This document shows positions 1 to 27,247 of a stretch of 30,733 bases of DNA, piece by piece. Each line of letters starts with the position of its first letter. Position 1 is the first letter of the stretch. The stretch covers positions 1 through 30,733 of the forward strand of contig JAFREV010000099.1 of assembly GCA_017434685.1 (NCBI GenBank), read 5' to 3'. Made by a program: the position numbers and the translations under genes. The notes below the pieces were generated by a model. It made no database searches and was not told the DNA's origin. It saw only the letters and a program-made list of their open reading frames with translations. This DNA is from Mogibacterium sp. (GTDB lineage: Bacteria > Bacillota > Clostridia > Peptostreptococcales > Anaerovoracaceae).

Positions 1-4
1 GTAC

Positions 5-1120
5 ATGAATACCGGGTATAAGGCAATAGATGAGTACGCAACACGGAACGAGCTTTACAACGACGTATTTGATGATTCGCACAAGACGACTTCGGTCAGC
101 GACAATATGACATACTACTTGATTTGGGCAAAGCCATATAAAAAGCTTGATTTGGACAACGGCAATCCGACCTGCGGTAATGAAATGTGGAAAGCGTTCC
201 CGACGGTTCCAGATGGTTTCATGGTGGATCAGGAAGACTCCGTCTGGAGAGATGAAAACGGAGAGCGCGTAAGGACCTTTGAAGGTGGCAAGACATACAC
301 CTTTAGCGGCATGATTTACCTGCGTCCCTACGGGGCCCTCTGGAATTACTTCCTCGATAAGGATAACTTCACGCTGACGGTAAAGGATGGCAAGGACTTA
401 AAATATGAAGTCGATGGCGACAGGATAATTTTGAGCTATAAGGCCACAGCCGGCCACGACTGGGATGAAGGCACAGTGACAAAAGAGCCGACCGAAACAG
501 CCGATGGCGTGAAGACTTTCAAGTGTAAGCACTGCGATGCCACAAAGACAGAAGTCATTCCTAAGAAGGGATCGAAGACAAACGCTCCAAAGGTAACAAC
601 CACAGCAAAGACATCCGCAAGAGCGATGACGGTCAAGTGGACCATGAAGTGGGGCAAGGTAAATGGAGCTAAGAGCTACAAGGTAGCATACCGCAAGGTA
701 GGAAGCAAGAAGTGGACATACAAGAAAACAAAGAAGACCCAGTACGTGGTAAAGGGCCACAAGATGAAAGGCCTTTATGAATACAAGGTGGCTGCAGTAT
801 CCAAGAAGGGATCGACCTAGTCGAACACTAGCCGCCGCTATTTCAGCCGCGTCAGTGACAAGGCCAAGGCAGGCAAAGGTTCCATCAAGGTAAGCTGGAA
901 GAAAGACAAGACAGCGACCGGATACCAGGTATTTGTAGCAACCAACAAGAACATGAAGAACTCCAAGAAGTTCGAAGTTGGCAAGTCTGCTAAGTCTTAC
1001 AAGATAAAAGGACTTAAAAAAGGAAAGAGATATTATGTCAGTGTGAGACCTATGAAGACTCACGGAGGAGTCACATACAAAGGCATCCTGAGCAAGGTTA
1101 AGAGAGTCAGGGTGAAATAG
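5..1120 (+). pseudogene. Cell-surface protein, 3' part (His/Cys 'HDW..C..C' module, then two Lys-rich fibronectin-III-like domains), interrupted by an in-frame TAG at 818-820; 5' end lies outside the window
   Basis: The frame is open from position 2. After TAG 818-820 the same frame continues for 99 codons (SNTSRRYFSRVSDKAKAGKGSIKVSWKKDKTATGYQVFVATNKNMKNSKK...VRVK) to TAG 1118-1120, which is followed by a terminator. The continuation looks like a second FN3-like domain. Confidence 0.75.
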
Positions 1121-1163
1121 GCGATATGCTGAATGAACCTTGACAGGGGGATGAAACAGGAGG

Positions 1164-1191
1164 CACCGCTTCTACGGAGGCGGTGTTTTCT
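1164..1191 (+). terminator. Rho-independent terminator
   Basis: CACCGCTTC-TACG-GAGGCGGTG stem (cUACGg tetraloop) followed by TTTTCT. Confidence 0.85.
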
Positions 1192-1194
1192 GTA

Positions 1195-1223
1195 TTGTGG
1201 TTTCTTTTGGTCTGTGATAGAAT
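1195..1223 (+). promoter_or_regulatory. Putative SigA promoter for the TM1266-type regulator and downstream cluster
   Basis: TTGTGG (1195-1200), 17-nt spacer, TAGAAT (1218-1223) with an extended -10 TG. Confidence 0.5.
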
Positions 1224-1266
1224 CCCTTTTGACAATTAAATAACTCTTTTGAACAGGAGATTTGAT

Positions 1267-1512
1267 ATGGATACGAGAGTCGCCGTGATAAGCATTATTG
1301 TCACGGAGGCATCCCAGGTGGAAGTGCTGAACAACCTCCTCCATGAGTACTCCAAATACATCCTCGGAAGGATGGGAGTTCCTTATAGAGAGAAGAATCT
1401 GAACATCATCAGCATAGCCATTGACGCACCGATGGATGAGATCAATTCACTCACAGGTGCGCTCGGACGCCTCGAGGGCATAAATGCCAAGGTGACCTAC
1501 GCCAAGTCATAA
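1267..1512 (+). CDS. TM1266-family 'iron-only hydrogenase system regulator' (ACT/NikR C-terminal-like)
   Basis: 81 aa, MDTRVAVISIIV...NNLLHEY..YILGRMGVPYREKNLNIISIAIDAP..EINSLTGALGRLEG, matching this family by eye. RBS AGGAG lies upstream of ATG 1267. Confidence 0.88.
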   Translation: MDTRVAVISIIVTEASQVEVLNNLLHEYSKYILGRMGVPYREKNLNIISIAIDAPMDEINSLTGALGRLEGINAKVTYAKS

Positions 1513-1529
1513 TCTCACCTGTATAACAG

Positions 1530-1670
1530 CTGATGCTGCGGACTGCCGCAGCAGAGCATCCCTGAGACCGAAACTTAGACTTGAGGCCGAAGACGATGGA
1601 AAGTTGCTGCAAATTAGCGAAAGAACCATTGGATATGCAGGCCTTGTTCCGGACCGGGGACAGGGCTTTT
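1530..1670 (+). promoter_or_regulatory. Structured leader ending in an intrinsic terminator (candidate riboswitch/attenuator) before the permease
   Basis: Hairpin TGCTGCGG-ACTG-CCGCAGCA (1534-1553); several GNRA-like loops; terminator GCCTTGTTCC/GGGACAGGGC followed by TTTT (1641-1670), 21 nt before the start codon. Confidence 0.5.
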
Positions 1671-1691
1671 AGATTTTAATAAAGGAAACAG

Positions 1692-2717
1692 GTGAGAATG
1701 AGACGGGACGGCAGGTTGCCGAATTACTGGAAATTAATACTGATAGTGCTGCCGTTTGCGGTAGCGCTGATTGCACTCGGAATCGGGAGGATGAGCATAA
1801 GTCCTGCCGAGGTTATTGAGGTGCTGAGGGCGAAGTTTTTCGGCGGCGGATATGCCGGAAGCGAGCTTACGGAAAAGACCGTGATGCAGCTTAGGCTGCC
1901 GAGGATAATCCTCGCGGCACTCGTGGGTGCGGGATTATCCGTGTCCGGCACGGCTTTTCAGAGCCTGTTTGCGAATCCTCTGGCTACGCCGGACACGCTC
2001 GGCGTAGCGAGCGGAGCGAGTTTCGGAGCCGCGCTCGGCATCCTGCTGGGCTTCGGTCTCATCGGGATTCAGATAATGGGGCTCTTTATGGGAGCCGCCG
2101 CAGTCACACTGACTTGGCTTGCGGGCTCGGGCAAAGACAGAGGAGGCCTCAGCTACATAGTCCTCTCGGGCATCATGATAGGCTCACTATTCTCTGCGCT
2201 CGTTTCGCTGATTAAATACGTAGCGGACGAAGAGTCGCAGCTTCCGGCCATCACATACTGGCTGATGGGAGGCCTCGACAGAGCAAACTACAAAACGCTT
2301 GCCCTCGGAGCACCTGTCATCATCGCGGGCATCATCATATTCTGCCTGATCAGGTGGCGCATGAACATACTCCCGCTTTCGGACGACGAAGCAAAGGCAA
2401 GCGGGGTAAACATTAGGCTGCTAAGGGGAGTCAGCGTGGTTTCCGCTACGGCAATTACCGCATCATGCGTATCTATGTGCGGACAGGTCGGCTGGGTTGG
2501 CCTCATAATACCGCATATGTGCCGCATGCTATTTGGAAGCAATCACCTGGCGCTCGTGCCGGCATCGATTAGCTTGGGAGCAGTCTTCATGATAATAGTC
2601 GACACTTTGGCGAGGACAATCTCAGCATCCGAGATTCCCGTTTCAATACTCACGGCCATAATAGGTGCGCCGTTCTTCGTGGTACTTATGAGACGATCGG
2701 GAGGCTGGCGCATATGA
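1692..2717 (+). CDS. Iron-chelate/cobalamin-type ABC transporter permease (FecCD/BtuC family)
   Basis: RLPRIILAALVGAGLSVSG, QSLFANPLATPDTLGVASGA, EAKASGVN and GWVGLIIPH motifs; multiple TM segments. The start is GTG 1692 or ATG 1698. Confidence 0.93.
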   Translation: MRMRRDGRLPNYWKLILIVLPFAVALIALGIGRMSISPAEVIEVLRAKFFGGGYAGSELTEKTVMQLRLPRIILAALVGAGLSVSGTAFQSLFANPLATPDTLGVASGASFGAALGILLGFGLIGIQIMGLFMGAAAVTLTWLAGSGKDRGGLSYIVLSGIMIGSLFSALVSLIKYVADEESQLPAITYWLMGGLDRANYKTLALGAPVIIAGIIIFCLIRWRMNILPLSDDEAKASGVNIRLLRGVSVVSATAITASCVSMCGQVGWVGLIIPHMCRMLFGSNHLALVPASISLGAVFMIIVDTLARTISASEIPVSILTAIIGAPFFVVLMRRSGGWRI

Positions 2718-2745
2718 TGAGGAAAACAAAAGGAGGCGGCCTCGC

Positions 2746-3525
2746 ATGAGCTTACTTAAAATAGAAAACGGCTCATTTGCATACAAAGGCGGGCCGCAGA
2801 TTCTCAATAATATAAATGTAGAAGTTGAGCCGGGAGAAATACTGGCTGTACTCGGCCCGAACGGCGCCGGAAAGACCACTTTGCTGAGGTGCATGATGGA
2901 CATGCTCCATTGGCAGGAAGGCAGGAGCCTTTTGGACGGCGAAGACATCAGAACCATGCCGGCATCCACACTCTGGCGCAGGATGGCTTACGTGCCTCAG
3001 GCGAGGTCGGCGGGGACTACATTCACGGCCTTTCAGACCGTGCTGCTCGGCCGAAGCAGCAGGATAGGTGCGTTCTCCGCTCCGTCGGAAGAGGATATGG
3101 AGATTGCGGACAGAATGATGAAGACTCTCGGCATCGATTATCTGGCGGACAAGCCTTGCCATGCGGTGAGCGGCGGAGAGCTTCAGATGATTCTTATCGC
3201 GCGCGCTATGGCGGCGGAGCCTGAAATCCTCGTACTCGATGAACCTGAGTCGAACCTTGATTTCAAAAACCAGCTCATAGTACTCGACACAATGTCCAAA
3301 CTCGCAGAGTCCGGAATGGCATGCATATTCAACACGCATTATCCGGCGCACGCACTTCAGAGGGCGGACAAGTCGCTCATGCTTACCAAGGGCGGCATGA
3401 ATATTTACGGGCGCACGAAGTATGTCATAAGCGAGGACGACATAAGAAGCATATTCGGAGTGAACGCCGTCATCGATGATGCCGGCGAAGTTCAAAACAT
3501 CACGCCGATCAGTATTGTTAAATAG
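2746..3525 (+). CDS. ABC transporter ATP-binding protein (FecE/BtuD-like)
   Basis: Walker A GPNGAGKT, signature VSGGELQ, Walker B ILVLDEP, H-switch THY; RBS AAGGAGG. Confidence 0.93.
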   Translation: MSLLKIENGSFAYKGGPQILNNINVEVEPGEILAVLGPNGAGKTTLLRCMMDMLHWQEGRSLLDGEDIRTMPASTLWRRMAYVPQARSAGTTFTAFQTVLLGRSSRIGAFSAPSEEDMEIADRMMKTLGIDYLADKPCHAVSGGELQMILIARAMAAEPEILVLDEPESNLDFKNQLIVLDTMSKLAESGMACIFNTHYPAHALQRADKSLMLTKGGMNIYGRTKYVISEDDIRSIFGVNAVIDDAGEVQNITPISIVK

Positions 3526-3571
3526 AGAGTAGTTATAGCTCGTCAGGGACGTTCGCACTATAACTACCCTC
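3525..3571 (+). other. Intercistronic stem-loop without a U-tract
   Basis: GAGAGTAGTTATAG (3525-3538) and CTATAACTACCCTC (3558-3571) pair at 13 of 14 positions around a 19-nt loop. Confidence 0.6.
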
Positions 3572-3582
3572 CTCCAATAATT

Positions 3583-4629
3583 ATGAAAAACAAGGAAATA
3601 ATATTAAAACTACAATCAAATCGCGCGCTCGAGGAGGGCGAATGGATTCAGATCTTCGATACTTTCGATGATGAAGATCTCCGTTTTGCAATGGATTTGG
3701 CGCGTGAAATAACCATAGAGCGTTTCGGTAAGAAGATATATTTCCGCGGAATAGTCGAATTTACGAATGTTTGCAAGAACGACTGCTATTACTGCGGAAT
3801 ACGTGCGGGTAATTCGAATTGTGCGAGATACAGGCTTGATGAAGAGGATATTCTCGCCTGCTGTGAGGATGGCTACGCGCACGGCTTCAGGACTTTCGTA
3901 CTGCAGGGCGGAGAGGATCCGCACTATACGAAAGAAAAGATGTGTCACATAGTCAGGAGCATCACGGAGCGCTATCCGGACTGCGCGGTGACCATGTCTA
4001 TAGGCGAACTGGACCGAGATTATTATCAGGCGCTCTACGATGCGGGTGCCGTGCGCTATCTGCTTAGGCACGAGACCGCAGATGCAGAGCATTATGCTCT
4101 GCTGCATCCTGCATCGCAGACTTTGGAGAGCAGGATGCGCTGTCTGAAAGATTTGAAGGAGATAGGCTTTCAGACAGGCTGCGGGATCATGGTGGGAAGC
4201 CCTCATCAGACGAACCTGCACTTAGCCAAAGATATGATGTTTATGGCGGATTTCAAACCTGAGATGGTAGGCCTCGGCCCCTTCATCCCGCACAGGGATA
4301 CGCCGTTTCGGGATGAAGCCGCAGGATCTGTGGATAAAACACTGATGGTAATCGCACTCACACGGATCATGCTGCCCAACGCGCTCATACCATCGACCAC
4401 AGCGCTCGGGACGGCCGAGGCCGAAGGGCGCCAGAAAGGCGTTCTGGCCGGCTGCAATGTCGTAATGCCGAATCTCTCGCCGCTCGAGGTGAGAAAGAAA
4501 TACATGCTCTACGACGGCAAGGTCGGCACTGACATGAGTGCGGAGGCCGGCATCAGAACGCTGAGGGCGCAGATGGAAGAAATAGGATACGAAGTAATTG
4601 TCGCACGCGGCGATTTTAAGAGGAGATAG
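3583..4629 (+). CDS. hydE: HydE-type radical SAM enzyme ([FeFe]-hydrogenase maturase HydE family)
   Basis: [20 protein letters not shown] (CX3CX2C), [38 protein letters not shown], and VVMPNLSP...KKYMLYDGK (HydE YxLY motif). Confidence 0.85.
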
Positions 4630-4631
4630 AA

Positions 4632-5384
4632 ATGGTAAAAATTGCAGTGTATGGAAAGGGCGGAATAGGAAAGTCGACCACAGTATCGAATGTTTCTGCA
4701 GCCCTTGCAGATATGGGATATAAGGTTATGCAGATAGGCTGCGATCCGAAGGCTGACTCCACATCCGCCCTGCACGGTGGACAGGATATTACGACCGTGC
4801 TGGATCTGGTCAGAGAGCACAAGAACGATTTCGAGCTCTCGGACATGGTTCGCGAGGGCTACGGCGGAGTCATCTGCGTAGAGGCAGGCGGGCCGACGCC
4901 GGGACTCGGATGCGCAGGCCGCGGCATTATCGCAGCCCTAGATAAGCTCAAAGAAAAGGTCGCATACGAAACCTACGAGCCGGACGTTGTAATCTACGAC
5001 GTACTCGGTGACGTGGTCTGCGGAGGTTTCTCCATGCCTATGAGAGGCGGCTACGCAGACAAGGTATTCGTCATCACGTCCGGCGAAAACATGGCCATCC
5101 ACGCTGCGGCCAATATCGCGGTCGCAATCGATGGCTTCAAGGACCGCGGATATGCGTCCCTTGGCGGCATCATCCTTAACCACAGAAACGTAAAGGACGA
5201 AGATGCCAAGGTACGCGAGCTCGCATCAGACATAAACAGCGAGATAGTAGGCGAGCTCAGCCGCAGCGAAACAGTAACAGATGCAGAAGACCTCGGTAAG
5301 ACAGTAATCGAGGCATTTCCGAATAGCGAAATGGCAGAGCAGTACAGAAAGCTCGCCAAAACGCTTCTCGAAAGCTGCATTTAA
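4632..5384 (+). CDS. nifH: Nitrogenase iron-protein-like reductase (NifH/CfbC/BchL family, divergent 'group IV'-like)
   Basis: [36 protein letters not shown] and [12 protein letters not shown]; both [4Fe-4S] Cys are present; RBS GAGGAG. Confidence 0.88.
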
Positions 5385-5387
5385 AAG

Positions 5388-5580
5388 GAGTTTTTAAATA
5401 TTTCATACATTTAGAGATTATTTAGAAGAAATATGTATGAAATAATAAAAAAGCAGAAGTGAAAAGTTAACGATAACCATGATTTAAGCAGTTATTGTAT
5501 ATAAGAGTATAGAAACAAGAAGGGATTTCATACATTTATGGTTTTTATTGTTTAAATATGTATGATTTTTTAAAAAACTC
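5388..5580. repeat. MITE-like element, copy A (193 bp, 23-bp terminal inverted repeats, two internal inverted pairs)
   Basis: Ends GAGTTTTTAAATATTTCATACAT and ATGTATGATTTTTTAAAAAACTC; inner half-sites ATGTATGAAA (5433-5442) and TTTCATACAT (5526-5535); both spacers are 22 nt. Confidence 0.75.
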
Positions 5581-5610
5581 GTGCTTCAGATAGTTGTGAA
5601 AGAAAAAGGA

Positions 5611-6972
5611 ATGCTAAAGAAAGTAAATGCAAATGAGAATAGGAATAATGTAGAAATACCGCAGGTGAGAATAGGAGATGCGGAATTTCCACAGCCTTTC
5701 AGATCGGGCCTTGAGTACGCCTCACCGGCACGCGGCACCTGGAACATAGTTCATACGGGAATGCTCATTCCTGAGGCGCACGAGATATTCGTGTGTGCTT
5801 CGTGCTGCCTGCGCGGCGTTGTGCTCACGGCAGCCGAGATGGGCGCCATGGACAGGTTCTCAACGGTCGAAATTCGTGAGCACAACCTCCTCGATGGCGA
5901 CATGGAAGAACTCGTCATCGAGGGCGTTTCGGACATAATCAACAAACTTCCGAAACGGCCTCCGGCAGTCCTCGTATACACAAGTTGCGTCCACCATTTC
6001 ACGGGCGTGGACCTGGATATGATTTACGAAAGACTGCGCGAGCGCTTCCCGGATATAGACTTCACGGATTGCTATATGAATCCGATTATGAGAAAGAGCG
6101 GAATGACTCCGGATCAGTTAATGCGCTCGCGCCTCTACACTATGCTCCATGAGCGAGAGATAAATCCTAGGGCGGTCGCCATCATAGGAAACGACTTGCC
6201 TACCGATGAGGACAGCGAGCTTATGTACATATTGAAGTCAAACGATTTCATCGTGCACGAGATCACTTCCTGCAAATCCTACGAGGAATACCAGGAGATG
6301 GCCGAGAGCGCATACTACATCTCATACTATCCGGATGCGGTGCCGGGCGGAGATATGCTTGCAGACAGGCTCGGCGGCAAACACATAAAGATGGATTTCA
6401 GCTTCGACTACGAAGAGATAGACGAGACATTTGCCGAACTCGCCGGTGCGCTCGGCATCAATCCGAGAAAGCCGTCAGATATCTCAGATGCAAGACGCTT
6501 ATGTGAAGAGGAACTCGTAGCCACAAAAGAGCTCGTGGGGGACACGCCAATTGCCATTGACTATACATACTGCACCAGGCCGCTCGGGCTTGCCAAAATG
6601 CTGCTCACGCACGGCTTCAATGTGCAGAGAGTCTACCTGGATGCGGTGTCCGGAGGGGACAAAGATGCATTTGATTACCTCAAGAGAAAGTATCCGGATC
6701 TGATACTTTCACCTACAGTGCATGCAGGCATGAGGTTTGCTCAAACGGCAAACAGCGGGGCCGGTAGCAAAGTTCTCGCCCTCGGTCAGAAAGCCGCATA
6801 TTTTGAGAACACGAATCATTTCGTCAACCTCGTCGAGGGAGGCGGCATGATGGGCTACGAAGCCATATACAGAACTGCCCGCCTGATGCGCGAAGCTTTC
6901 GAGACGGAGAAAGATATGAAGGAACTGGTCGGAATCAAAGGCCTTGGCTGTGAAGGAGGATGCTGCTCATGA
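5611..6972 (+). CDS. Nitrogenase component-1-like oxidoreductase, alpha-like subunit (NifD/NifE/BchN/CfbD superfamily)
   Basis: VCASCCLRGV and YTSCVHHFTGVDL align with NifD HGPVGC and SECxxxxIGDD. It follows the nifH-like gene and has a Cys-rich C-terminus (GLGCEGGCCS). ATG 5611 is preferred because GTG 5581 abuts the repeat element. Confidence 0.85.
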   Translation: MLKKVNANENRNNVEIPQVRIGDAEFPQPFRSGLEYASPARGTWNIVHTGMLIPEAHEIFVCASCCLRGVVLTAAEMGAMDRFSTVEIREHNLLDGDMEELVIEGVSDIINKLPKRPPAVLVYTSCVHHFTGVDLDMIYERLRERFPDIDFTDCYMNPIMRKSGMTPDQLMRSRLYTMLHEREINPRAVAIIGNDLPTDEDSELMYILKSNDFIVHEITSCKSYEEYQEMAESAYYISYYPDAVPGGDMLADRLGGKHIKMDFSFDYEEIDETFAELAGALGINPRKPSDISDARRLCEEELVATKELVGDTPIAIDYTYCTRPLGLAKMLLTHGFNVQRVYLDAVSGGDKDAFDYLKRKYPDLILSPTVHAGMRFAQTANSGAGSKVLALGQKAAYFENTNHFVNLVEGGGMMGYEAIYRTARLMREAFETEKDMKELVGIKGLGCEGGCCS

Positions 6973-8339
6973 AGCAAACTTCAAGAATTACATCTACATA
7001 TTCGGCAGATACCATGGGCGTGTGCTCGGCTCTCTTTGAGCTGGGCGGCATGACCATAATGCACGATGCCTCAGGCTGCAACTCGACATATACGACTCAC
7101 GATGAACCGCGTTGGTACGACATGGACAGCATGGTGTACATCTCCGCGCTTACTGAAATGGAAGCCATAATGGGAGATGATGAAAAACTGTTGGGAGATA
7201 TCGAAGATGCAGTAAGAGAACTACATCCTAAGTTCGTGGCAATTGCCGGCACGCCGATACCGACCATGACAGGTTTTGATTTCGAGGCGGTGGCAGCTGT
7301 CGCAGAGCAGAGGACGGGCGTGCCGTGTTTCGGCTTTGCAACTACGGGCATGAACACCTACATTCACGGTGTATCGATGGCCTTCGAAACCCTGGCAAAA
7401 CGCGTAGTTAAAGATATTAAAACAGAAAAGAAAAAAGAATTGCCGTCAGATAACGAGAGGCAAGATGTACAAGAAGAAAGTTTCTCAAAACATACAGATA
7501 GCAATCAGTACGGCAGCCATTCAACAACTCCCAAAAAACTAAAGGTCAACATCATCGGCCTGACACCGCTCGACTTCTCAGTCAACGGGCAGGACTCTTC
7601 GATAGCATCATGGCTCGAGTCCGAAAATTTCGAAGTAGTCTCGCGCTGGGCCATGGGCTCAACGCTTGAAGAAATCGCCATGGCCGGCGAAGCCGACGTC
7701 AACCTCGTCGTCTCCGCCTCAGGCCTCGCCGCGGCGAAAGTCCTTTTTGAAAGATTCGGCATGCCTTATGCAGTCGGACTTCCAATCGGCCATGAGCTTC
7801 CAGGGGCTTTCGCGGACCTGATCAAAACCAAGGTACGGGAATTCAAAGAGGCGGATGCTTCGGCGGCCACATTCGAATCCCGCGAGATCAGCATCCACTC
7901 CGGCATATTCCTCGCCGGTTCCGATTCTCAAAACTCTGCTGCTCAGAACGCAACAGCGGAGAGAAAAAACACAACAGACAGTGTGCAACCATACAAGAAA
8001 GGTTTCACCGCCATAATAGGAGAGGGCGTTGCATCGTTCTCACTCGCGAACGCTGTTGAGCTCGATCTCGGCATTCCTGCCAAAGTGCTCTGCACTACGG
8101 AATGCCCGGAGGATATGCTCCGCGAGTGCGACCGCATTACGCCGGACGAAGACGACATAATCCCGGAACTTGAAGGCGCGGCATACATAATCGCAGATCC
8201 GCTCTACAAACCGATCTGCCCGCCGGAAGCCAAATTCATTCCGCTTCCGAGCGAAGGTTTTTCCGGCCGCCTCTACAGAGACGAAATCCCAAATTTGATA
8301 ACAGACTTTGAGGACTTTTTAAAGAAAAGATGCATATAA
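6969..8339 (+). CDS. Nitrogenase component-1-like oxidoreductase, beta-like subunit (NifK/NifN/BchB superfamily)
   Basis: MHDASGCNSTY matches the HGxxGC motif; AGTPIPTMTGFDF occupies the TCxxxxIGDD position. ATGA overlap with the upstream gene; GGAGG lies ~9 nt upstream of ATG 6969. Confidence 0.85.
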   Translation: MKQTSRITSTYSADTMGVCSALFELGGMTIMHDASGCNSTYTTHDEPRWYDMDSMVYISALTEMEAIMGDDEKLLGDIEDAVRELHPKFVAIAGTPIPTMTGFDFEAVAAVAEQRTGVPCFGFATTGMNTYIHGVSMAFETLAKRVVKDIKTEKKKELPSDNERQDVQEESFSKHTDSNQYGSHSTTPKKLKVNIIGLTPLDFSVNGQDSSIASWLESENFEVVSRWAMGSTLEEIAMAGEADVNLVVSASGLAAAKVLFERFGMPYAVGLPIGHELPGAFADLIKTKVREFKEADASAATFESREISIHSGIFLAGSDSQNSAAQNATAERKNTTDSVQPYKKGFTAIIGEGVASFSLANAVELDLGIPAKVLCTTECPEDMLRECDRITPDEDDIIPELEGAAYIIADPLYKPICPPEAKFIPLPSEGFSGRLYRDEIPNLITDFEDFLKKRCI

Positions 8340-8537
8340 CCTCAAAAATACGCATGCTATGCATCTTTTTGCGACACGACCTCCCGCTGAAGGATGAGAG
8401 ATGCCGAAAAAGCGGACGATAATCTCGTTTTCTATGTTTATCGTAAAGTTGTAAAAATCCCGAGAGTCCGCGACTTTCAAAAATGATGCATAAAGGCATA
8501 AAAAATGCAGTCAAATGCATCATTTGCTGAAAAACTC
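8313..8537. repeat. MITE-like element, divergent copy C (225 bp); overlaps the last codons of the beta-like gene
   Basis: Ends GACTTTTTAAAGAAAAGATGCAT and ATGCATCATTTGCTGAAAAACTC (23 bp each); inner half-sites ATGCATC (8359-8365) and GATGCAT (8485-8491); both spacers are 23 nt. Confidence 0.6.
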
Positions 8538-8757
8538 CTTCAGCAAAAGTATTCAGTCCCAAATTCAGGTGAGAAAAAGGGAAATATAAATCTTCTAAGC
8601 TCTCATCCAAACGGGACAATGAAGAATACAGCTTTGCCAATATTCAGAAGTGACAGCGCCAAAAAGTTTAACTGAGATGTGCGGTTGCCTTAAATAAGAT
8701 TGTTCCCTGCCCTAGGCGGGACAATATATAAAATATTAAAAAAGGAGGACTCTGAAT

Positions 8758-9930
8758 ATGAAGATCGAGAATCTGAGTATGAAGACGAAGATAATTATTG
8801 CACTTATGATGGCTATGGCCCTGGCACTCTCTTGCCTTGCGGCCTGCGGCGCAAAAGGCGAACCTGCAACTGAGGATGCGGGCGGCAGCGACGCAAATGC
8901 CGGAACGATCACCATCACCGACCATGCCGACAAACAGGTCGAGGTACCTACGGAGATCAACAGAATCGCTGTTTGCGACATATTCCCGATTCCGAGTGTA
9001 CTCGCCGTGTTCTTTGATTCGGCAGACAAAATCGTGGGCATGCCTGAACCGAGCAAGACAGCCGCTGAGAACGGACTGCTCGGACAGCTCTATCCTGAAA
9101 TCCTGAACGCGGAGACAGGATACATCGACGGCAGCAATGTTAACATGGAGGAGCTTGCCAAACTCGAGCCGGATGTTGTTATCTACAGCGCGTCCAGCCC
9201 AGAGCTCGGAGAGCAGCTCACAAATGCGGGTTTTGCGGCAGTAGCCATCTCCGTTAATAAATGGAACTACGACTGCATCGAAACCCTGAACAACTGGATC
9301 GACCTGCTGAGCCAGATGTTCCCTGACAGCGACAAGGCTGAACTCGTAAAGACAAGATCCAACGAGATGTACGACATGGTGCAGGAACGCGTCAAAGACA
9401 TTCCGGATGAAGAGAAAGCCAATGCTTTCTTCCTCTTCCAGTACGATGACACAACGCTCCTGACTTCCGGCAAACAGTTCTTTGGTCAGTGGTGGGCTGA
9501 TGCCATCGGTGCCAAGAACGTCGCTGTCGAGCTCGAGAACGACAACTCGGTGCCTGCCAACATGGAGCAGATTTATACATGGAATCCGAATCTCATATTC
9601 ATAACCAACTTCAACAAGTACTATCCGGATGACCTCTACAACAACACGGTGGAAGGTTATGACTGGAGCCCGGTTGAGGCTGTTAAGAACCAGAGAGTTT
9701 ACAAGATGCCGCTCGGCATGTACAGAAGCTACACCCCTGGTGTTGACTGTCCGGTTACTCTGCTTTGGATGGCAAAGACAGCTTATCCGGAAAAATTCGA
9801 GGATGTTGATGTAATCAAAACAACCAAGGATTATTACAAAGAAGTATTCGGTATCGACCTGACTGACGACCAGGCCAAATCCATATTCGAACCGGCACAG
9901 AGTGCAGGCGGCGGCTTCGCGTATCAGTAG
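8758..9930 (+). CDS. ABC transporter substrate-binding lipoprotein, iron-siderophore/cobalamin type (helical-backbone, TroA-like superfamily)
   Basis: Signal peptide with lipobox LAAC; ITITDHADKQVEVPTEINRIA, NMEELAKLEPDVV, NMEQIYTWNPNLIFI and VEAVKNQRVY motifs; RBS AAGGAGG. Confidence 0.9.
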   Translation: MKIENLSMKTKIIIALMMAMALALSCLAACGAKGEPATEDAGGSDANAGTITITDHADKQVEVPTEINRIAVCDIFPIPSVLAVFFDSADKIVGMPEPSKTAAENGLLGQLYPEILNAETGYIDGSNVNMEELAKLEPDVVIYSASSPELGEQLTNAGFAAVAISVNKWNYDCIETLNNWIDLLSQMFPDSDKAELVKTRSNEMYDMVQERVKDIPDEEKANAFFLFQYDDTTLLTSGKQFFGQWWADAIGAKNVAVELENDNSVPANMEQIYTWNPNLIFITNFNKYYPDDLYNNTVEGYDWSPVEAVKNQRVYKMPLGMYRSYTPGVDCPVTLLWMAKTAYPEKFEDVDVIKTTKDYYKEVFGIDLTDDQAKSIFEPAQSAGGGFAYQ

Positions 9931-10037
9931 AGAAAAGGCCATCAGCAAAGGCCTGTCCAAATAGAAGGACAAAGGCAAAGGCCGGCGCAGATTAAAAACC
10001 AATAGTCATCTACAAAGACTAAGGCAAATATTCAAAG

Positions 10038-10070
10038 AGAAAGAGGCGGATATAACGCCTCTTTCTTGGT
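10038..10070 (+). terminator. Rho-independent terminator
   Basis: AGAAAGAGGCG-GATATAA-CGCCTCTTTCT, an 11-bp perfect stem downstream of the SBP gene. Confidence 0.75.
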
Positions 10071-10202
10071 ATTAGTATTTGTAATATCAAGCATGAAAAA
10101 CTCCCATTTTACAGGCTCTGCGGTGTGTGTTAATTTGTTGTCAGAAACAAACAGCAGTACAAACTGCAATTTCAAATACACATTCTAACAGGAGGAATAG
10201 TC

Positions 10203-10286
10203 ATGTTATACGTAGTAGGAATCGTAGTAGTAACCGGTATCATCACATATTTCTATGAGACACACACACCGGATTCAACAAAATAA
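10203..10286 (+). CDS. Small hydrophobic peptide (27 aa, one predicted TM), absent from the ORF track
   Basis: AGGAGG ends 7 nt before the ATG; MLYVVGIVVVTGIITYFYETHTPDSTK; a similar sORF lies at 29894. Confidence 0.6.
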   Translation: MLYVVGIVVVTGIITYFYETHTPDSTK

Positions 10287-10339
10287 GCATCTCCTTACTT
10301 AAGAGAAACTCATTACAAAAACTAAAGTAAAGATTGAAG

Positions 10340-10369
10340 AAAAAACCCGCTTGTAGAAGCGGGCCTTTT
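10340..10369. terminator. Bidirectional terminator between the sORF and LysR
   Basis: AAAAAA-CCCGCTT-GTAG-AAGCGGG-CCTTTT. Confidence 0.75.
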
Positions 10370-10371
10370 CT

Positions 10372-11238
10372 TTATTTGATATTCTCTTTTATATACTTGA
10401 TTACGAATCTCGTCAGCGGCCCCGCATCAGCGAGGGACTTTAAGGCTATGCCCATAGTCCTGTATGAGTCAGGCTCGAGCTTCCTGGCTTCGTACTTGCC
10501 CGGGAACTCGCTGATTGTAAGCTGAGGTATAATGGCCAGTCCCAAACCTTTTTGCACCATCGAGAGGACGGCGAAGTCGTCTCTTGAGAAGTATTTAACC
10601 TCAGGTATAAAGCCCGCTTTCTCAAATATCCTATACGGGTCCAGGTCGTAGCTTTCATAGGTCATAATGAAAGGCTGCTTCTTGAGTTTGCTGATCGGAA
10701 CGGATTCGAGGCGTGCCAATTTATGTCCGGGTGGCATAACCACCAGCATAGGATCTTCGAGTATAGGAATGAAGTCAATGTTCGGTTTTCTGGGATCGCT
10801 CATAAGTGCCATATCCAGAGAGCCGTCCATAATACCGTGAAGCATCTCCTCATGCCCGATCTCTTCTATACGAAATACCACATCGGGATAGTTGTTCTGA
10901 AAGTACTGCAATATTTGCGGCACCCAGTAAACCGACGTACTCGGAAAGGAGCCTATTCTGAGATTGCCCTTGCGCAGGCCCTGTATTTCGGCCATTTCCT
11001 GATTGAGCTTCTCTTCGCATCTTATGAGTTCTCTCATGGCGGGCAGGAGAATCTTAGCTTCGTTTGTAGCCTCCACGCCCCTGTTGGTTTTGACCAGCAA
11101 AGGAAATCCTATCTCTTCCTCGTAGGCTTTCATGGCCTGGGTGAGATAAGACTGTGTATAGCCGAGCATTTCTCCGGCCTTGGTGAGGCTTCCCTGCTCA
11201 ATTGCAGTTATTAGGACTTTAATTCTTTGTGTATTCAA
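10372..11238 (-). CDS. LysR-family transcriptional regulator
   Basis: N-terminal HTH (GSLTKAGEMLGYTQSYLTQAMKAYEEEIGFPLL), then GNLRIGSFPS and MVQKGLGLAIIP; TTG start with a GGAG RBS. Confidence 0.95.
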   Translation of the reverse strand: MNTQRIKVLITAIEQGSLTKAGEMLGYTQSYLTQAMKAYEEEIGFPLLVKTNRGVEATNEAKILLPAMRELIRCEEKLNQEMAEIQGLRKGNLRIGSFPSTSVYWVPQILQYFQNNYPDVVFRIEEIGHEEMLHGIMDGSLDMALMSDPRKPNIDFIPILEDPMLVVMPPGHKLARLESVPISKLKKQPFIMTYESYDLDPYRIFEKAGFIPEVKYFSRDDFAVLSMVQKGLGLAIIPQLTISEFPGKYEARKLEPDSYRTMGIALKSLADAGPLTRFVIKYIKENIK

Positions 11239-11361
11239 GTTTTTCTCCGTTCGATTTTAAGCTGTGTTGTTATTCAGATTGTACTTTTATTGTGCGATGC
11301 AGTCAAAACAAGATATGCAGAAATCGCAAAACCATATTTGCTTTTGTGCTAAAATATATCC

Positions 11362-11736
11362 ATGGTAGATATAGACAGATTCTTTGAATTGCTGACCGAG
11401 GTATGCGAGGAGCTGCCGGATGAATTCTTTCGCGAGCTGCACCAGGGAGTGTTGCTTTCGGAAGCGCTTAAGATATCTCCTTATGCGAGAAGCGAGGACC
11501 TCTATATAATGGGTGAATACAGGCGCGCGTACTACGGCAACCAAATTACGATATATTACGGCTCGTTCGAAAAAGCGTATGTACATATTGATGAAGAGGC
11601 TCTCAAAGACAAACTACGCGAGACTGTGAGGCACGAGTTCCGACATCACATGGAGCACCTCTCCGGCATGTACGGAGCTGACTCGCTCGAGCGCGAAGAC
11701 CGGATTCAGATGAGACGTTATCTCAGAGGGGAATAG
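11362..11736 (+). CDS. Minimal zincin-like metallopeptidase-family protein
   Basis: 124 aa with LPDEFF..L, ITIYYGSF and TVRHEFRHH (HEXXH). Confidence 0.8.
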   Translation: MVDIDRFFELLTEVCEELPDEFFRELHQGVLLSEALKISPYARSEDLYIMGEYRRAYYGNQITIYYGSFEKAYVHIDEEALKDKLRETVRHEFRHHMEHLSGMYGADSLEREDRIQMRRYLRGE

Positions 11737-11749
11737 GAATTCCATTAGT

Positions 11750-17612: not shown

Positions 17613-17766
17613 CATCCTCATAATATATAAAGTTATCAATTAGGGAGAAGGACAGTGTTATGACTTATGATAAAGAATAACCGCTCTGTAACCATCATGA
17701 GAATACAATTCATAATGTAAAAAAAGGATATTGAGTGATATTCAATTCTTTTTCGGAGGACAGAAA

Positions 17767-25429: not shown

Positions 25430-25506
25430 GCAACTTGTTTGCAGCGGCGTGAAGGAATAGAATGCAAGCATCTAAAGATAAAGATGAAAGGATATATCAG
25501 CGGACA

Positions 25507-26601
25507 ATGAAAGAGAAATTTGATCTTCAGCAATACCTGTCAGATGGGGTAGAGCAGGTAGTAAAGGATGCGATGAAAGCCACTCTCAAAGATCCGAGGG
25601 AGAGTGCTTTTATTGCGAAGTTCGCCGTCGCAAGCGCGAAAGCAAATATAAAGAGAATCAAAGAGGAGAAGGAAGGACTTCACGTGCCTTCTTATCTTAT
25701 TGCAAGTATAACTTCGAGCTGCAACCTTCACTGCGCGGGCTGCTACTCAAGAGCGAATAATGCCACAGTAGACTGCGAGCCGAAGAAACAGCTGACGGAC
25801 GAGGAGTGGCTTTGCATATTCAAAGAAGCCGAGGAACTCGGCATCAGCTTCATACTGCTTGCCGGAGGCGAGCCTATGCTGAGATGGGATGTGCTGCAAG
25901 CGGCGGGAAGCGTTCCGAACATACTCTTTCCGATTTTTACAAACGGCACTTTCATGAGCGAAAAATACATGGAGCTTCTGGACAGCTGCCGCAACCTCAT
26001 ACCGGTCATAAGCATTGAAGGCGATCGCAGCGAGACTGACAGGCGTCGTGGCGAAGGTGTTTACGACACCGTAATATCCAAAATGGATGAACTGCACAGG
26101 CGCGGCCTTATATACGGAGTGTCGGTTACCGTCACAAAGGAGAACCTGCATGAGGTATATTCAGATGAATTCCTCGACCTAATGATACAGCGCGGATGCA
26201 AAGCCGTATTCTACATTGAATATGTGCCTGTGACAGATGAGAGCAAGGAACTTGCGCCTGACGATGCCGACCGCGATTATATGACTGAGAAGATGGACAG
26301 CTTGAGGGCAAATCACCAGGATATGATGTACGTTGCATTCCCGGGGGATGAAAAAAGCTCCGGTGGATGCCTTGCAGCGGGACGCGGGTTCTTTCACATC
26401 AACTCGCATGGTGGAGCGGAGCCTTGCCCGTTCTCGGCATATTCAGATATCAATGTAAAGGACACCTCAGTAAGAGAAGCGATGGGCTCAGGCCTTTTCA
26501 CCGCACTTCGAGACGGTGGCGTGCTCTCGGGCGAACACATCGGCGGCTGCGTCCTTCACGAAAAACGCGACCAAGTCGAAGCAATACTCAGGGGAGAATA
26601 A
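25507..26601 (+). CDS. Radical SAM protein with a SPASM/twitch-type C-terminal domain, function unknown
   Basis: ITSSCNLHCAGCYS, LAGGEPMLR, FTNGT, SIEG and GGCLAAGRGFFHINSHGGAEPCPF. Start uncertain (25462 or 25507). Confidence 0.85.
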   Translation: MKEKFDLQQYLSDGVEQVVKDAMKATLKDPRESAFIAKFAVASAKANIKRIKEEKEGLHVPSYLIASITSSCNLHCAGCYSRANNATVDCEPKKQLTDEEWLCIFKEAEELGISFILLAGGEPMLRWDVLQAAGSVPNILFPIFTNGTFMSEKYMELLDSCRNLIPVISIEGDRSETDRRRGEGVYDTVISKMDELHRRGLIYGVSVTVTKENLHEVYSDEFLDLMIQRGCKAVFYIEYVPVTDESKELAPDDADRDYMTEKMDSLRANHQDMMYVAFPGDEKSSGGCLAAGRGFFHINSHGGAEPCPFSAYSDINVKDTSVREAMGSGLFTALRDGGVLSGEHIGGCVLHEKRDQVEAILRGE

Positions 26602-27181: not shown

Positions 27182-27247
27182 CCATGAGGGACTTTCTTTG
27201 ATGAAATGTGCAGATGAAATATGTATGTTGATTGAAGTGGAGAGCTT

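What the first reader, a model, noticed from the sequence alone, without database searches (positions are those of the whole stretch)
1267..9930. Candidate undescribed system: a non-N2-fixing nitrogenase-like H/D/K module packaged with a HydE radical SAM enzyme, a hydrogenase-type regulator and a metal-chelate importer
Seen: co-oriented, tightly spaced genes in the order TM1266-type regulator, FecCD permease, ATPase, HydE-like, NifH-like, NifD/E-like, NifK/N-like, chelate-binding lipoprotein. No nifB, nifEN pair, PII or ammonium genes occur in the window. Established: nitrogenase-fold H/D/K systems do other chemistry, including DPOR/COR (chlorophyll), CfbCD (F430) and MarBHDK (methylthio-alkane reductase). 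FecCD/BtuC transporters import metal chelates and tetrapyrroles. Inference: the cluster imports a metallo-chelate or tetrapyrrole-like substrate, for example a corrinoid, heme or an F430-related compound scavenged in a gut habitat, and reduces it in an ATP-driven step. I know of no characterised pathway with this gene combination.
Basis: partly seen in the sequence, partly recalled or inferred. Interest (0 to 1): 0.85.

Follow-up and report, generated by a model that had tools for sequence, protein, structure and literature searches.

The report
Nitrogenase-like operon tied to hydrogenase maturation
This rumen bacterium's nitrogenase-like gene cluster does not look like a nitrogen-fixing or pigment-reducing system: it is a widespread, unstudied gene set that travels with the [FeFe]-hydrogenase assembly genes HydE and HydF in bacteria that lack the third assembly enzyme HydG, so it probably offers an unknown way of building the hydrogenase's iron centre.

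Summary
All eight genes are present, co-oriented and in the stated order. Relatives occur in at least 288 species genomes, and the gene order is conserved in 80 fetched loci from rumen and gut Clostridia.

The interpretation (reduction of an imported chelate or tetrapyrrole) is not what the evidence favours.
- The "HydE-like" gene is the genome's only HydE.
- Every cluster-bearing genome tested also has [FeFe]-hydrogenase HydA (46/46), and nearly all have HydF (44/46).
- HydG was found in only 2 of 58 such genomes. It is present in 75/119 sampled Clostridia and 46/100 sampled family members, none of which carry the cluster.
- HydF directly follows the binding-protein gene in 20 loci.
- The TM1266 gene and a leader RNA (window 1556-1676) are shared with canonical hydE-hydG operons.
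- Where the ABC importer is missing (9 genomes), a second nitrogenase-like trio fused to HypFCDE is present (9/9, against 1/37). Nine of the 10 genomes carrying that module lack a [NiFe] hydrogenase.

Best reading (about 0.55): a NifH/NifEN-like, ATP-driven machine takes HydG's place in H-cluster assembly.

Dos Santos et al. 2012 mentioned the association in one sentence, and a 2026 review of nitrogenase-like systems omits it. This scan found the same system earlier on other DNA.

The parts
1215..1223 (+). Extended -10 promoter box (TGaTAGAAT), about 45 nt before the TM1266 start codon
   Evidence: The same TGTGATAGAAT-type box aligns just upstream of TM1266 in Anaerovoracaceae-type loci. The upstream terminator-like hairpin at 1156-1193 closes the preceding unit. 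The promoter is inferred from consensus only.
1267..1512 (+). TM1266-like small ACT/NikR-C-like protein, first gene of the operon
   Evidence: TIGR03959 108 bits against a cutoff of 60.8. PDB 2NZC, E 5e-11. Present at the cluster in 43/43 genomes. Homologues at 43-62% identity lie directly upstream of hydE in 10 of 15 canonical hydE-hydG loci.
1556..1676 (+). Leader RNA: conserved 5' motif (1556-1602) followed by an intrinsic-terminator hairpin and T-run (1639-1676), placed before the importer genes
   Evidence: The motif occurs in 24 other cluster loci, always on the sense strand. RNAalifold predicts a short helix with one covarying pair, followed by a covarying terminator. Covariance model R1 also hits two canonical TM1266-hydE-hydG operons, L120 at 46 bits and L115 at 28 bits. 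Terminator scan. No Rfam family matches.
1692..2717 (+). FecCD/BtuC-type permease of a type II ABC importer
   Evidence: Pfam FecCD 275 bits. All NCBIfam equivalog models score below cutoff. Found in 55 of the 80 loci.
2746..3525 (+). ABC importer ATPase
   Evidence: ABC_tran 107.7 bits. Syntenic in the loci.
3583..4629 (+). HydE, radical SAM [FeFe]-hydrogenase maturase; the only HydE copy found in this genome
   Evidence: TIGR03956 518 bits against a cutoff of 254.6. It is the only hit over cutoff in G000. 41 of 43 cluster genomes have a single HydE hit and two have a second, located inside the cluster or elsewhere.
4632..5384 (+). NifH-like ATP-dependent Fe protein (NflH)
   Evidence: Fer4_NifH 297 bits. 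nifH 326 and CfbC 322 bits are both below cutoff, and BchL scores only 201 bits. The best PDB hit is MarH, 9FMG_D, at 258 bits. Walker A GKGGIGKS and cluster cysteines C94/C130 are present and invariant in the family.
5386..5590 (.). Strain-specific AT-rich inverted-repeat insertion between nflH and nflD (not part of the system)
   Evidence: Absent in L006, where the gap is 20 nt. It carries two copies of AAATATGTATGA, which is also found at 27043-27228.
5581..6972 (+). NflD, a very divergent nitrogenase component-1-fold subunit rich in conserved Cys/His (likely true start M11 = 5611)
   Evidence: Oxidored_nitro 66.5 bits, and no NCBIfam family above E 1e-4. No PDB hit by sequence. AF2 pLDDT 80, with Foldseek top hits NifN/AnfK/NifK at TM 0.60-0.64 and 12-15% identity. 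Invariant or near-invariant residues: C72, C76, C136, H138, H139, C164, H226, C231, H268, H381, C457, C462. The family profile finds only 999 proteins at E<=1e-3 among 1.84 billion.
6960..8339 (+). NflK, the partner subunit, NifE-like by sequence and fold; overlaps nflD by 13 nt
   Evidence: Oxidored_nitro 106.9 bits and NifE 66 bits against a cutoff of 505. PDB NifE E 2.4e-8, MarD only 0.003. Foldseek top hit NifE, TM 0.52-0.58. Conserved C22, H35, C40, H47, C378. It carries strain-specific in-frame insertions relative to L006.
8758..9930 (+). Peripla_BP_2 substrate-binding lipoprotein of the importer
   Evidence: Pfam 68.9 bits. Lipobox LAAC. PDB: 4OVK 1e-47 (ligand unknown), MolA HI_1472 8e-22 (entry titled 'protein HI_1472'; its identity as the molybdate/tungstate-binding MolA is recalled, not tool-given), and a chain titled nickel(II)/iron(III) ABC-transporter periplasmic binding protein (4INO) 1e-15, recalled as H. 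pylori CeuE.
10346..10364 (+). Terminator-like hairpin closing the operon, shared with the convergent LysR gene

Best explanation
The cluster is the 'importer-type' form of a widespread, uncharacterised accessory system for assembling the [2Fe] part of the [FeFe]-hydrogenase H-cluster in Clostridia that lack HydG.

Shown:
- The nitrogenase-like trio is genomically coupled to HydE, HydF, the TM1266-like protein and the hyd-operon leader RNA.
- It occurs in genomes that have HydA and almost never in genomes that have HydG.

Inferred mechanism:
- NflH is an ATP-hydrolysing [4Fe-4S] electron donor.
- NflDK is a NifEN-like scaffold. It probably carries an interface [4Fe-4S] cluster (NflD C72/C76/C136 plus NflK C40) and a second Cys/His-rich site in NflD.
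- On that scaffold an iron precursor is reduced or assembled and handed to HydE, then HydF, then apo-HydA. This supplies what HydG's Fe(CO)2(CN)(Cys) synthon supplies in the canonical pathway.
- The FecCD/ATPase/lipoprotein importer feeds this step with a small metal species or precursor.
- In lineages without the importer, the same input is probably made internally by a second nitrogenase-like trio fused to HypF-HypC-HypD-HypE, the Fe-CN/CO machinery of [NiFe] hydrogenases.
- The leader RNA with its terminator places the importer and downstream genes under the same control as ordinary hyd maturase operons.
For: 1. HydE is single-copy in 41/43 cluster genomes, whether inside the cluster or elsewhere.
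2. HydG is over cutoff in only 2/43 of these.
   - In an even sample of 119 Clostridia at least 90% complete, the three NflD+ genomes are HydE+ HydG-, while 75 HydG+ genomes are all NflD-.
   - In a 101-genome family sample, 13 are NflD+ and 46 are HydG+ with no overlap.
3. HydA is present in 46/46 cluster genomes and 5/5 further ones. HydF is over cutoff in 44/46. G000 itself has HydF and HydA.
4. HydF directly follows the SBP gene in 20 loci. A distant lineage keeps the same parts in another order, NifH-NflD-NflK-SBP-FecCD-ATPase-HydE (L097).
5. TM1266 homologues head canonical hydE-hydG operons, and the leader motif is shared with two of them.
6. NifB is absent in 43/46 genomes. NflK is NifE-like and NflD NifN/K-like by fold, that is, closest to a cofactor-maturation scaffold.
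7. HypD is present in 9/9 importer-less genomes and 1/37 importer-type genomes. It always lies in a block NifH2-D2-K2-HypF-HypC-HypD-HypE. 9/10 of these genomes have no [NiFe] large subunit.
8. Dos Santos et al. 2012 (PMC3464626) independently remarked that such NifHEN-like proteins sit with hydrogenase maturation proteins.
9. Contigs from bovine and gut RNA libraries cover pieces of every gene of the operon except the ABC ATPase, for which only depth was seen. This is weak evidence.
Against: - No biochemical or genetic data exist. Everything rests on gene context and phyletic patterns, and related genomes are not independent.
- Two cluster genomes (G005, G033) also have HydG.
- The importer-type form, including this window, shows no obvious source of CO or cyanide.
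- The importer/Hyp alternation rests on only 4 phylogenetically independent contrasts (sign test p = 0.125).
- HydE plus HydF alone can give about 1% activation of HydA in vitro with trace diatomics (discussed in PMC9431212), so lacking HydG need not demand a replacement.
- The window's own genome is only 59.6% complete, so HydG is 'not found' there, not absent.
- G109 and G116 are HydE+ HydG- with no nitrogenase-like genes. That shows HydG can go undetected, or be missing, without this system.
- One earlier follow-up of this scan judged that nothing yet shows replacement of HydG.
Confidence: 0.55

Rival explanations
1. The importer brings in a metal chelate or tetrapyrrole (corrinoid, heme, F430-like, siderophore), and NflHDK reduces it in an ATP-driven step for salvage or iron release. 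HydE modifies the same substrate.
For: Characterised nitrogenase-like enzymes (DPOR, COR, CfbCD) reduce tetrapyrroles; this is established knowledge and is covered in the review PMC13474568. The FecCD/Peripla_BP_2 family usually imports chelates. IsdE (heme) is the best NCBIfam hit of the SBP, at 53.6 bits. The importer is kept in most loci.
Against: - The trio persists without any importer in 11 loci.
- It tracks HydE, HydF, HydA and the absence of HydG, not tetrapyrrole genes.
- The IsdE hit is far below its cutoff of 298.
- The closest solved SBP relatives with named ligands bind molybdate/tungstate or nickel.
- NflH is NifH/MarH-like rather than BchL-like, 326 against 201 bits.
- No tetrapyrrole gene lies in the window.
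Confidence: 0.1
2. NflDK is itself a new enzyme whose active site is an Fe-CO/CN or other organometallic cofactor. That cofactor would be built by HydE, HydF and (in other lineages) HypFCDE. On this view the maturases serve the nitrogenase-like protein, not HydA.
For: NflD has an unusually rich set of invariant Cys/His residues beyond what an electron-transfer cluster needs. The maturases are encoded inside the cluster. The Hyp genes occur without a [NiFe] hydrogenase.
Against: - All carriers have HydA and would then have no complete route to mature it.
- The strict anticorrelation with HydG is not explained.
- HydE and HydF are single-copy, so they would have to serve both clients.
- An earlier scan entry proposing a nitrogenase-like client of HypCDEF was later marked as failed. 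I did not re-test that.
Confidence: 0.15
3. The system acquires or supplies metal. The importer takes up Fe, Ni, Mo or W as a small complex, and NflHDK reductively releases or stores it for Fe-S and hydrogenase biogenesis in general. It has no specific role in making CO/CN ligands.
For: SBP relatives bind molybdate/tungstate and nickel complexes. Dos Santos et al. suggested coupling of metal transport to cofactor assembly for nitrogenase-like genes lying next to ABC transporters.
Against: This does not explain why the alternative to the importer is a HypFCDE-bearing module. It also does not explain why HydG in particular is missing.
Confidence: 0.1
4. The co-location is accidental or merely regulatory. 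Hyd maturase genes and an unrelated nitrogenase-like reductase happen to share an operon in some lineages, and HydG is missed or replaced by something else.
For: HydE lies outside the cluster in most Anaerovoracaceae-type genomes, and its position changes at least 12 times on the NflD tree. Two HydE+ HydG- genomes have no nitrogenase-like genes.
Against: Co-occurrence holds even when the genes are unlinked: HydE in 43/43 and HydF in 44/46 genomes. It holds across at least three families and in two different gene orders. The leader RNA and TM1266 are shared with canonical hyd operons. There is zero overlap with HydG in two even samples.
Confidence: 0.07

Closest known systems
Canonical [FeFe]-hydrogenase maturation operon (TM1266-like, HydE, HydG, HydF)
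   Same: It shares the TM1266-like first gene (43-62% identity to those heading hydE-hydG operons), a bona fide HydE, HydF (adjacent in 20 loci and elsewhere in this genome) and the same leader RNA motif.
   Different: HydG, the source of the Fe(CO)2(CN) synthon, is missing. In its place are a NifH-like ATPase, two nitrogenase-fold subunits and an ABC importer, or in other lineages a second trio plus HypFCDE.
NifH + NifEN, the FeMo-cofactor maturation scaffold of nitrogenase
   Same: It is a two-component layout of an ATP-dependent Fe protein plus a heteromeric component-1-fold pair. NflK's best sequence and fold matches are NifE, and NflD's best fold matches are NifN, AnfK and NifK. The likely role is cofactor assembly rather than catalysis on a free substrate.
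   Different: Identity is only 12-18%. NifB and NifDK clients are absent. NifE scores 66 bits against a cutoff of 505. The Cys pattern is reduced, and NflD has extra invariant Cys/His residues.
'NifHEN-like' Firmicutes clade of Dos Santos et al. 2012 (Coprococcus catus GD/7, Dorea longicatena; BMC Genomics 13:162, PMC3464626)
   Same: The paper describes the same Cys arrangement: two conserved Cys in the D/E-like subunit and one in the K/N-like subunit. It notes association with hydrogenase maturation proteins and, for other clades, with ABC transporters.
   Different: The paper gives one speculative sentence. It reports no HydG anticorrelation, no importer-versus-Hyp alternation and no leader RNA. 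I could not compare sequences with those named strains directly.
HypCDEF Fe(CN)2CO assembly machinery of [NiFe] hydrogenases
   Same: In importer-less relatives, HypF, HypC, HypD and HypE equivalogs sit in one block with a second nitrogenase-like trio. This implies Fe-CN/CO chemistry in the pathway.
   Different: None of these genes is in this window or was found in this genome. In the relatives they occur without a [NiFe] large subunit.
Methylthio-alkane reductase MarBHDK (Group IV-C nitrogenase-like)
   Same: NflH's best solved relative is MarH, 9FMG_D at 258 bits.
   Different: NflD has no detectable sequence match to MarD, and NflK matches only at E 0.003. There is no MarB/NifB and no sulfur-metabolism context.
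DPOR/COR and CfbCD (tetrapyrrole-reducing nitrogenase-like enzymes)
   Same: They share the ATP-driven Fe protein plus component-1-fold partner that lacks FeMo-co ligands. A 3+1 ligand set for a single interface [4Fe-4S] is plausible, as in DPOR.
   Different: BchL, BchN, BchB, BchY and CfbD models are far below cutoff. There are no tetrapyrrole biosynthesis neighbours. The gene context is hydrogenase maturation.
Type II ABC importers with small-ligand binding proteins (recalled as MolBC-A and H. pylori CeuE/FecDE)
   Same: It has a FecCD permease, an ATPase and a Peripla_BP_2 lipoprotein. HI_1472 (8e-22) and the nickel(II)/iron(III) ABC-transporter binding protein 4INO (1e-15) are the closest solved relatives with named ligands. 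Their identities as MolA (molybdate/tungstate) and H. pylori CeuE rest on my own knowledge, not on the tool output.
   Different: The best solved relative overall, 4OVK, has no assigned ligand. The substrate here is unknown.

Membership tests
N2-fixing nitrogenase (NifHDK / Vnf / Anf) | NifD and NifK reach the curated family scores; the FeMo-co ligands Cys275/His442 and six P-cluster cysteines are present | tested here: not met
   nifD scores 36.5 bits (cutoff 653) and nifK 21 bits (cutoff 427), for NflK only. NflD hits no Nif model. The conserved Cys pattern is reduced to about 3+1. The mapping onto Nif numbering is approximate.
N2-fixing nitrogenase (NifHDK / Vnf / Anf) | NifB and NifEN are present in the genome (minimum gene set of Dos Santos 2012) | tested here: not met
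   No NifB in G000, where the best hit is 23.5 bits. NifB is absent in 43/46 cluster genomes. G000 has only one Oxidored_nitro pair.
Methylthio-alkane reductase MarBHDK (Group IV-C) | MarD/MarK homology plus an associated MarB/NifB maturase | tested here: not met
   NflD has no hit to 9FMG_A/9D9U_A and NflK hits at E 0.003. NifB family is absent.
DPOR / COR (Group V) | BchL/BchX-type Fe protein with BchN/B or BchY/Z partners at family score | tested here: not met
   BchL 200.7 bits (cutoff 345), BchX 172 bits (cutoff 331), BchY 19.9 bits, BchB 38 bits.
CfbCD (Group IV-B, F430 synthesis) | CfbC and a single homomeric CfbD at family score | tested here: not met
   CfbC 321.9 bits (cutoff 402). 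CfbD (methan_mark_13) 24.7 bits (cutoff 268). Two different subunits are present.
Group VI nitrogenase-like (Elusimicrobia type, Meheust et al. 2020) | NifH branching beside Group V; many radical SAM neighbours with B12-binding or HemN_C domains; no NifB | tested here: inconclusive
   No reference sequences were available for a tree. NflH scores much closer to NifH/CfbC (326/322 bits) than to BchL (201 bits). The only radical SAM neighbour is HydE. The lack of NifB is shared. The family description was read.
NifEN-like maturation scaffold | Heteromeric component-1 fold closest to NifE/NifN, working with a NifH-type Fe protein | tested here: met
   Foldseek: NflD to NifN 9IAN_C, E 8e-16, TM 0.60. 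NflK to NifE 9ONK_A, E 4e-14. phmmer: NflK to NifE, 2.4e-8. This holds at fold level only; identity is 12-18%.
NifEN-like maturation scaffold | Receives a NifB-made L-cluster and delivers a cofactor to NifDK | tested here: not met
   No NifB and no NifDK client were found.
Canonical [FeFe]-hydrogenase maturation system | HydE, HydF and the TM1266-like protein are present together with HydA | tested here: met
   HydE 518 bits, TM1266 108 bits. In G000, HydF scores 550 bits and HydA 339 bits. The same holds in 44-46 of 46 related genomes.
Canonical [FeFe]-hydrogenase maturation system | HydG present | tested here: not met
   HydG was not found in G000, which is 59.6% complete. It is over cutoff in 2 of 58 NflD-bearing genomes.
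Firmicutes NifHEN-like clade associated with hydrogenase maturation proteins (Dos Santos 2012) | Two conserved Cys in the D/E-like subunit, one in the K/N-like subunit, and neighbouring hydrogenase maturation genes | tested here: met
   NflD C76 (with C72) and C136, and NflK C40, are invariant. HydE is inside the cluster and HydF adjacent in relatives. The paper text was read. No direct sequence comparison with the named strains was possible.
Type II (FecCD/BtuCD-like) ABC importer | FecCD permease, ABC ATPase and Peripla_BP_2 binding protein encoded together | tested here: met
   275, 107.7 and 68.9 bits respectively. Lipobox present.

The most novel reading that the evidence does not exclude
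Some anaerobes build the CO/cyanide-bearing di-iron site of [FeFe] hydrogenase without HydG.
- They would use a nitrogenase-like ATP-driven reductase and a NifEN-like scaffold together with HydE and HydF.
- The iron-ligand input would come either from a HypFCDE-linked second nitrogenase-like trio or, in importer-type organisms such as this one, from something taken up from the rumen or gut environment.
- This would be a new physiological function for the nitrogenase superfamily and a second biosynthetic route to the H-cluster.
Probability: 0.45. Interest if true: 0.92.

Novelty: new variant of a known kind. Interest (0 to 1): 0.8.

Why it matters
H-cluster biosynthesis is taught as a three-enzyme pathway (HydE, HydF, HydG). 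A large set of abundant rumen and gut hydrogen producers appears to lack HydG and instead carries this cluster.

If the cluster fills that gap, three things follow.
- It reveals a second route to an organometallic cofactor.
- It gives a function to one of the uncharacterised nitrogenase-like groups. [quoted passage not shown]
- It may bear on the unsolved anaerobic origin of the CO ligand in Hyp-type maturation.

The idea is directly testable by heterologous maturation of HydA in E. coli. It is also relevant to rumen hydrogen and methane budgets and to engineering hydrogenases.

Tried and rejected
- **Rfam** at permissive threshold on 1-12000: nothing in the leader, only chance-level leader hits near LysR.
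- **Sequence search of PDB with NflD**: only spurious TAL-effector repeats and NifE at E 0.07.
- **Naming the nitrogenase-like group (IV-D, IV-E, VI)**: not possible.
  - No named reference sequences could be brought in.
  - The mBio 2026 paper has no held supplement.
  - Hits in the protein collections are named only 'nitrogenase'.
  - A deep tree at 12-18% identity was judged unreliable and was not built.
- **Context of unlinked HydE copies**: not conserved across families.
- **Independent-contrast test of importer against HypD**: same direction in about 4 of 4 pairs, but underpowered (p = 0.125).
- **Covariance model of the leader**: does not detect the long TM1266-FecCD spacers of most Anaerovoracaceae loci, so those may hold a diverged or different element.
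- **Protein atlas look-up of the SBP**: only generic names.
- **Literature searches** for HydG-independent maturation, nitrogenase-like plus Hyd/Hyp, and TM1266: no paper describes the system.
- **RNA-library contigs**: they show pieces of the genes in bovine and gut samples but cannot prove transcription or co-transcription.
- **Rejected idea**: that HydE here is a specialised paralogue standing in for NifB. It is the only HydE in the genome and scores as a full equivalog.

Full report
**Observation**

- TM1266-like protein, 1267-1512: TIGR03959 108 bits, cutoff 60.8.
- FecCD permease, 1692-2717.
- ABC ATPase, 2746-3525.
- HydE, 3583-4629: TIGR03956 518 bits, cutoff 254.6.
- NifH-like Fe protein, 4632-5384.
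- Two very divergent Oxidored_nitro proteins, here called NflD (5581 or 5611 to 6972) and NflK (6960-8339).
- Peripla_BP_2 lipoprotein, 8758-9930, with an LAAC lipobox.

The genome is a 59.6%-complete MAG of 1.27 Mb. The closest loci come from rumen MAGs labelled uncultured Clostridiales, and more distant ones from Anaerovoracaceae and Mogibacterium MAGs.

Two larger gaps, 5385-5610 and 8340-8757, are strain-specific insertions. They are missing in the 96%-identical locus L006 and in a contig of run X8.

**Conservation**

A scan of one genome per species found 288 genomes encoding an NflD relative. In the 80 best loci the order TM1266 / FecCD / ATPase / (second TM1266 copy) / (HydE) / NifH / NflD / NflK / SBP recurs across Anaerovoracaceae/Mogibacterium, Lachnospiraceae and Oscillospiraceae MAGs.
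- HydE lies inside the cluster in about 29 loci.
- The importer is missing in 11 of the 72 loci that could be judged, which keep only TM1266-NifH-NflD-NflK.
- A distant lineage (L097, 45% NflD identity) has the same parts in another order: NifH-NflD-NflK-SBP-FecCD-ATPase-HydE.

**What the nitrogenase-like proteins are**

NflH is a complete Fe protein.
- It has Walker A GKGGIGKS and cluster cysteines C94 and C130.
- It scores like NifH (326 bits) and CfbC (322 bits), below both cutoffs, and far above BchL (201 bits).
- Its best solved relative is MarH of R. rubrum, 9FMG_D.

NflD and NflK lie outside every curated family.
- NflD hits no NCBIfam model better than E 1e-4 and no PDB chain by sequence.
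- NflK hits NifE at 66 bits against a cutoff of 505, and MarD only at E 0.003.

AlphaFold models (pLDDT 80 and 73) have the component-1 fold at TM about 0.6 and 12-18% identity. NifN, AnfK and NifK lead for NflD, and NifE leads for NflK.

An NflD profile finds only 999 proteins at E<=1e-3 among 1.84 billion, some of them NflD-NflK fusions of 850-1010 aa.

Invariant residues:
- NflD: C72, C76, C136, H138, H139, C164, H226, C231, H268, H381, C457, C462.
- NflK: C22, H35, C40, H47, C378.

This fits the '2+1 Cys' pattern that Dos Santos et al. described for a Firmicutes NifHEN-like clade. It suggests one interface [4Fe-4S] cluster plus a further metal site in NflD.

NifB is absent in 43 of 46 cluster genomes and was not found in G000.

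**The turn: HydE is not a borrowed paralogue**
- 41 of 43 cluster-bearing genomes have exactly one HydE, and two have a second hit. It lies inside the cluster or elsewhere.
- Only 2 of 43 have HydG.
- All 46 genomes tested have an [FeFe]-hydrogenase catalytic domain, and 44 of 46 have HydF over cutoff.
- G000 itself has HydF (550 bits) and HydA (339 bits) on other contigs.

Two even samples show the same pattern.
- In 119 Clostridia at least 90% complete, 81 have HydE and 75 have HydG. The only three NflD-positive genomes (G140, G062, G105) are among the six that are HydE+ HydG-. None of the 75 HydG+ genomes has NflD.
- In a 101-genome sample of the family of G008 (a MAG labelled Lachnospiraceae), 13 are NflD+ and 46 are HydG+, with no overlap. 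The uncorrected hypergeometric p is about 2e-4, by my own arithmetic. Five of those NflD+ genomes were checked, and all have HydE and HydA.

**Physical linkage**
- HydF follows the SBP gene directly in 20 loci.
- TM1266-like genes with 43-62% identity to the window's sit immediately upstream of hydE in 10 of 15 canonical hydE-hydG loci.

**A shared leader RNA**

A conserved leader lies at window 1556-1676, between TM1266 and FecCD. It consists of a motif of the form TCTGACACCGAAAT..CATTGAGGYGAAAGAYAC, a variable hairpin and an intrinsic terminator.
- The motif precedes TM1266 or FecCD in 24 other cluster loci.
- A covariance model of it also hits two canonical TM1266-hydE-hydG operons.
- Rfam has no match.

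**The alternative module**

In G105 and G062 the cluster reads NifH2-D2-K2-HypF-HypC-HypD-HypE, followed by TM1266-NflD-NflK-HydF in G105 and by NifH-NflD-NflK in G062.
- HypE, HypD and HypF pass their equivalog cutoffs. HypC matches PF01455 over its Pfam cut-off (85.8 against 28.5 bits) and begins with the classic MCVGLP N-terminus.
- Across 46 genomes, HypD is present in 9 of 9 whose cluster lacks the importer and in 1 of 37 that have it.
- In every case examined, HypD sits in the same NifH2-D2-K2-HypFCDE block.
- Nine of the ten HypD-positive genomes have no [NiFe] large subunit.
- On an NflD tree the importer state changes at least six times. Four independent contrasts all go the expected way, but that is too few for significance (p = 0.125).

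The SBP's closest solved relatives are 4OVK (no assigned ligand), HI_1472 (which I recall as the molybdate/tungstate-binding MolA) and a chain titled nickel(II)/iron(III) ABC-transporter periplasmic binding protein, recalled as H. pylori CeuE. So a small metal species is at least as likely a substrate as a chelate or tetrapyrrole.

**Interpretation**

The most economical reading is that the trio, with TM1266, HydE and HydF, forms a HydG-independent branch of H-cluster maturation.
- NflH would drive low-potential electrons into a NifEN-like scaffold, NflDK.
- The iron-ligand input would come from a Hyp-linked second trio or, in this window's type, through an importer.

Gene coupling and phyletic complementarity are shown. 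The chemistry, the imported substrate and the direction of hand-over are inferred. The weak points are listed in the Against line. The main one is that the importer type has no visible CO/CN source.

Contigs from bovine and gut RNA libraries cover pieces of TM1266 plus the leader, FecCD, HydE, NifH, the NflD/NflK junction, NflK and the SBP at 93-99% identity. The ABC ATPase stretch shows depth only. This does not prove transcription.

**Literature**
- Dos Santos et al. [quoted passage not shown]
- The main text of the 2026 Chem Rev review of nitrogenase-like systems contains none of the terms 'hydrogenase maturation', HydE, HydG or HypF.
- No paper in the searchable library describes the HydG anticorrelation or the module alternation.

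**Earlier notes of this scan**

I reached the HydG/HydE/HydF/Hyp pattern, before consulting the scan's notes. Those notes show that the same system was found earlier on other DNA, with similar readings and one cautionary verdict. They also supplied the Dos Santos lead and the shared-leader idea, both of which I then checked myself.

Noticed in passing
window 5386-5590 and 27043-27228: An AT-rich inverted-repeat element carrying AAATATGTATGA half-sites. There are 5 matches in the window against 0.15 expected. One copy is inserted between nflH and nflD and is absent from the 96%-identical locus L006. It looks like a small mobile (MITE-like) element.
   Followed up: partly
window 8340-8757 and in-frame stretches of nflK (about 7400-7540 and 7930-7985): About 440 nt of extra sequence after nflK, plus two in-frame insertions inside nflK relative to L006. 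A contig of run X8 joins 8301 to 8741 with 72 other letters between, so the insertion is strain-specific. The inserted NflK segments have low model confidence.
   Followed up: partly
L095 (G105:C17) and L096 (G062:C4); also L099-L104: A second, more divergent nitrogenase-like trio (NifH2-D2-K2; D2 is 23-24% identical to NflD) is always fused to HypF-HypC-HypD-HypE. Most of the genomes carrying it lack a [NiFe] hydrogenase.
   Followed up: yes
G109 and G116 (class sample): These two nearly complete genomes have HydE (and G116 has HydF next to it), but no HydG and no Oxidored_nitro protein at all. Missing HydG is therefore not always accompanied by this system. Unexplained.
   Followed up: partly
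P0139, P0158, P0186, P0210: NflD-family representatives of 850-1010 aa, probably natural NflD-NflK fusions. These are reminiscent of the fused NifEN in PDB 9I0G.
   Followed up: no
most loci, between the ATPase and HydE/NifH genes: A second, diverged TM1266-like paralogue (31-47% identity) is present in most clusters. It is missing from the window and its four closest relatives.
   Followed up: no
window 17731-23166: An 1811-aa protein with Beta_helix_3 repeats and a C-terminal Big-like domain, probably a surface protein. It is unrelated to the cluster.
   Followed up: no
window 25462-26601: A further radical SAM protein (Radical_SAM plus Fer4_12) of unassigned family, 15 kb from the cluster. 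It does not hit NifB.
   Followed up: partly
window 1244-1627 (RNA-library contigs of X1 and X3): Two contigs from RNA libraries cover TM1266 and the leader motif and stop at 1590 and 1627, just before the terminator stem at 1639. This would fit attenuation, but the depth is very low.
   Followed up: no
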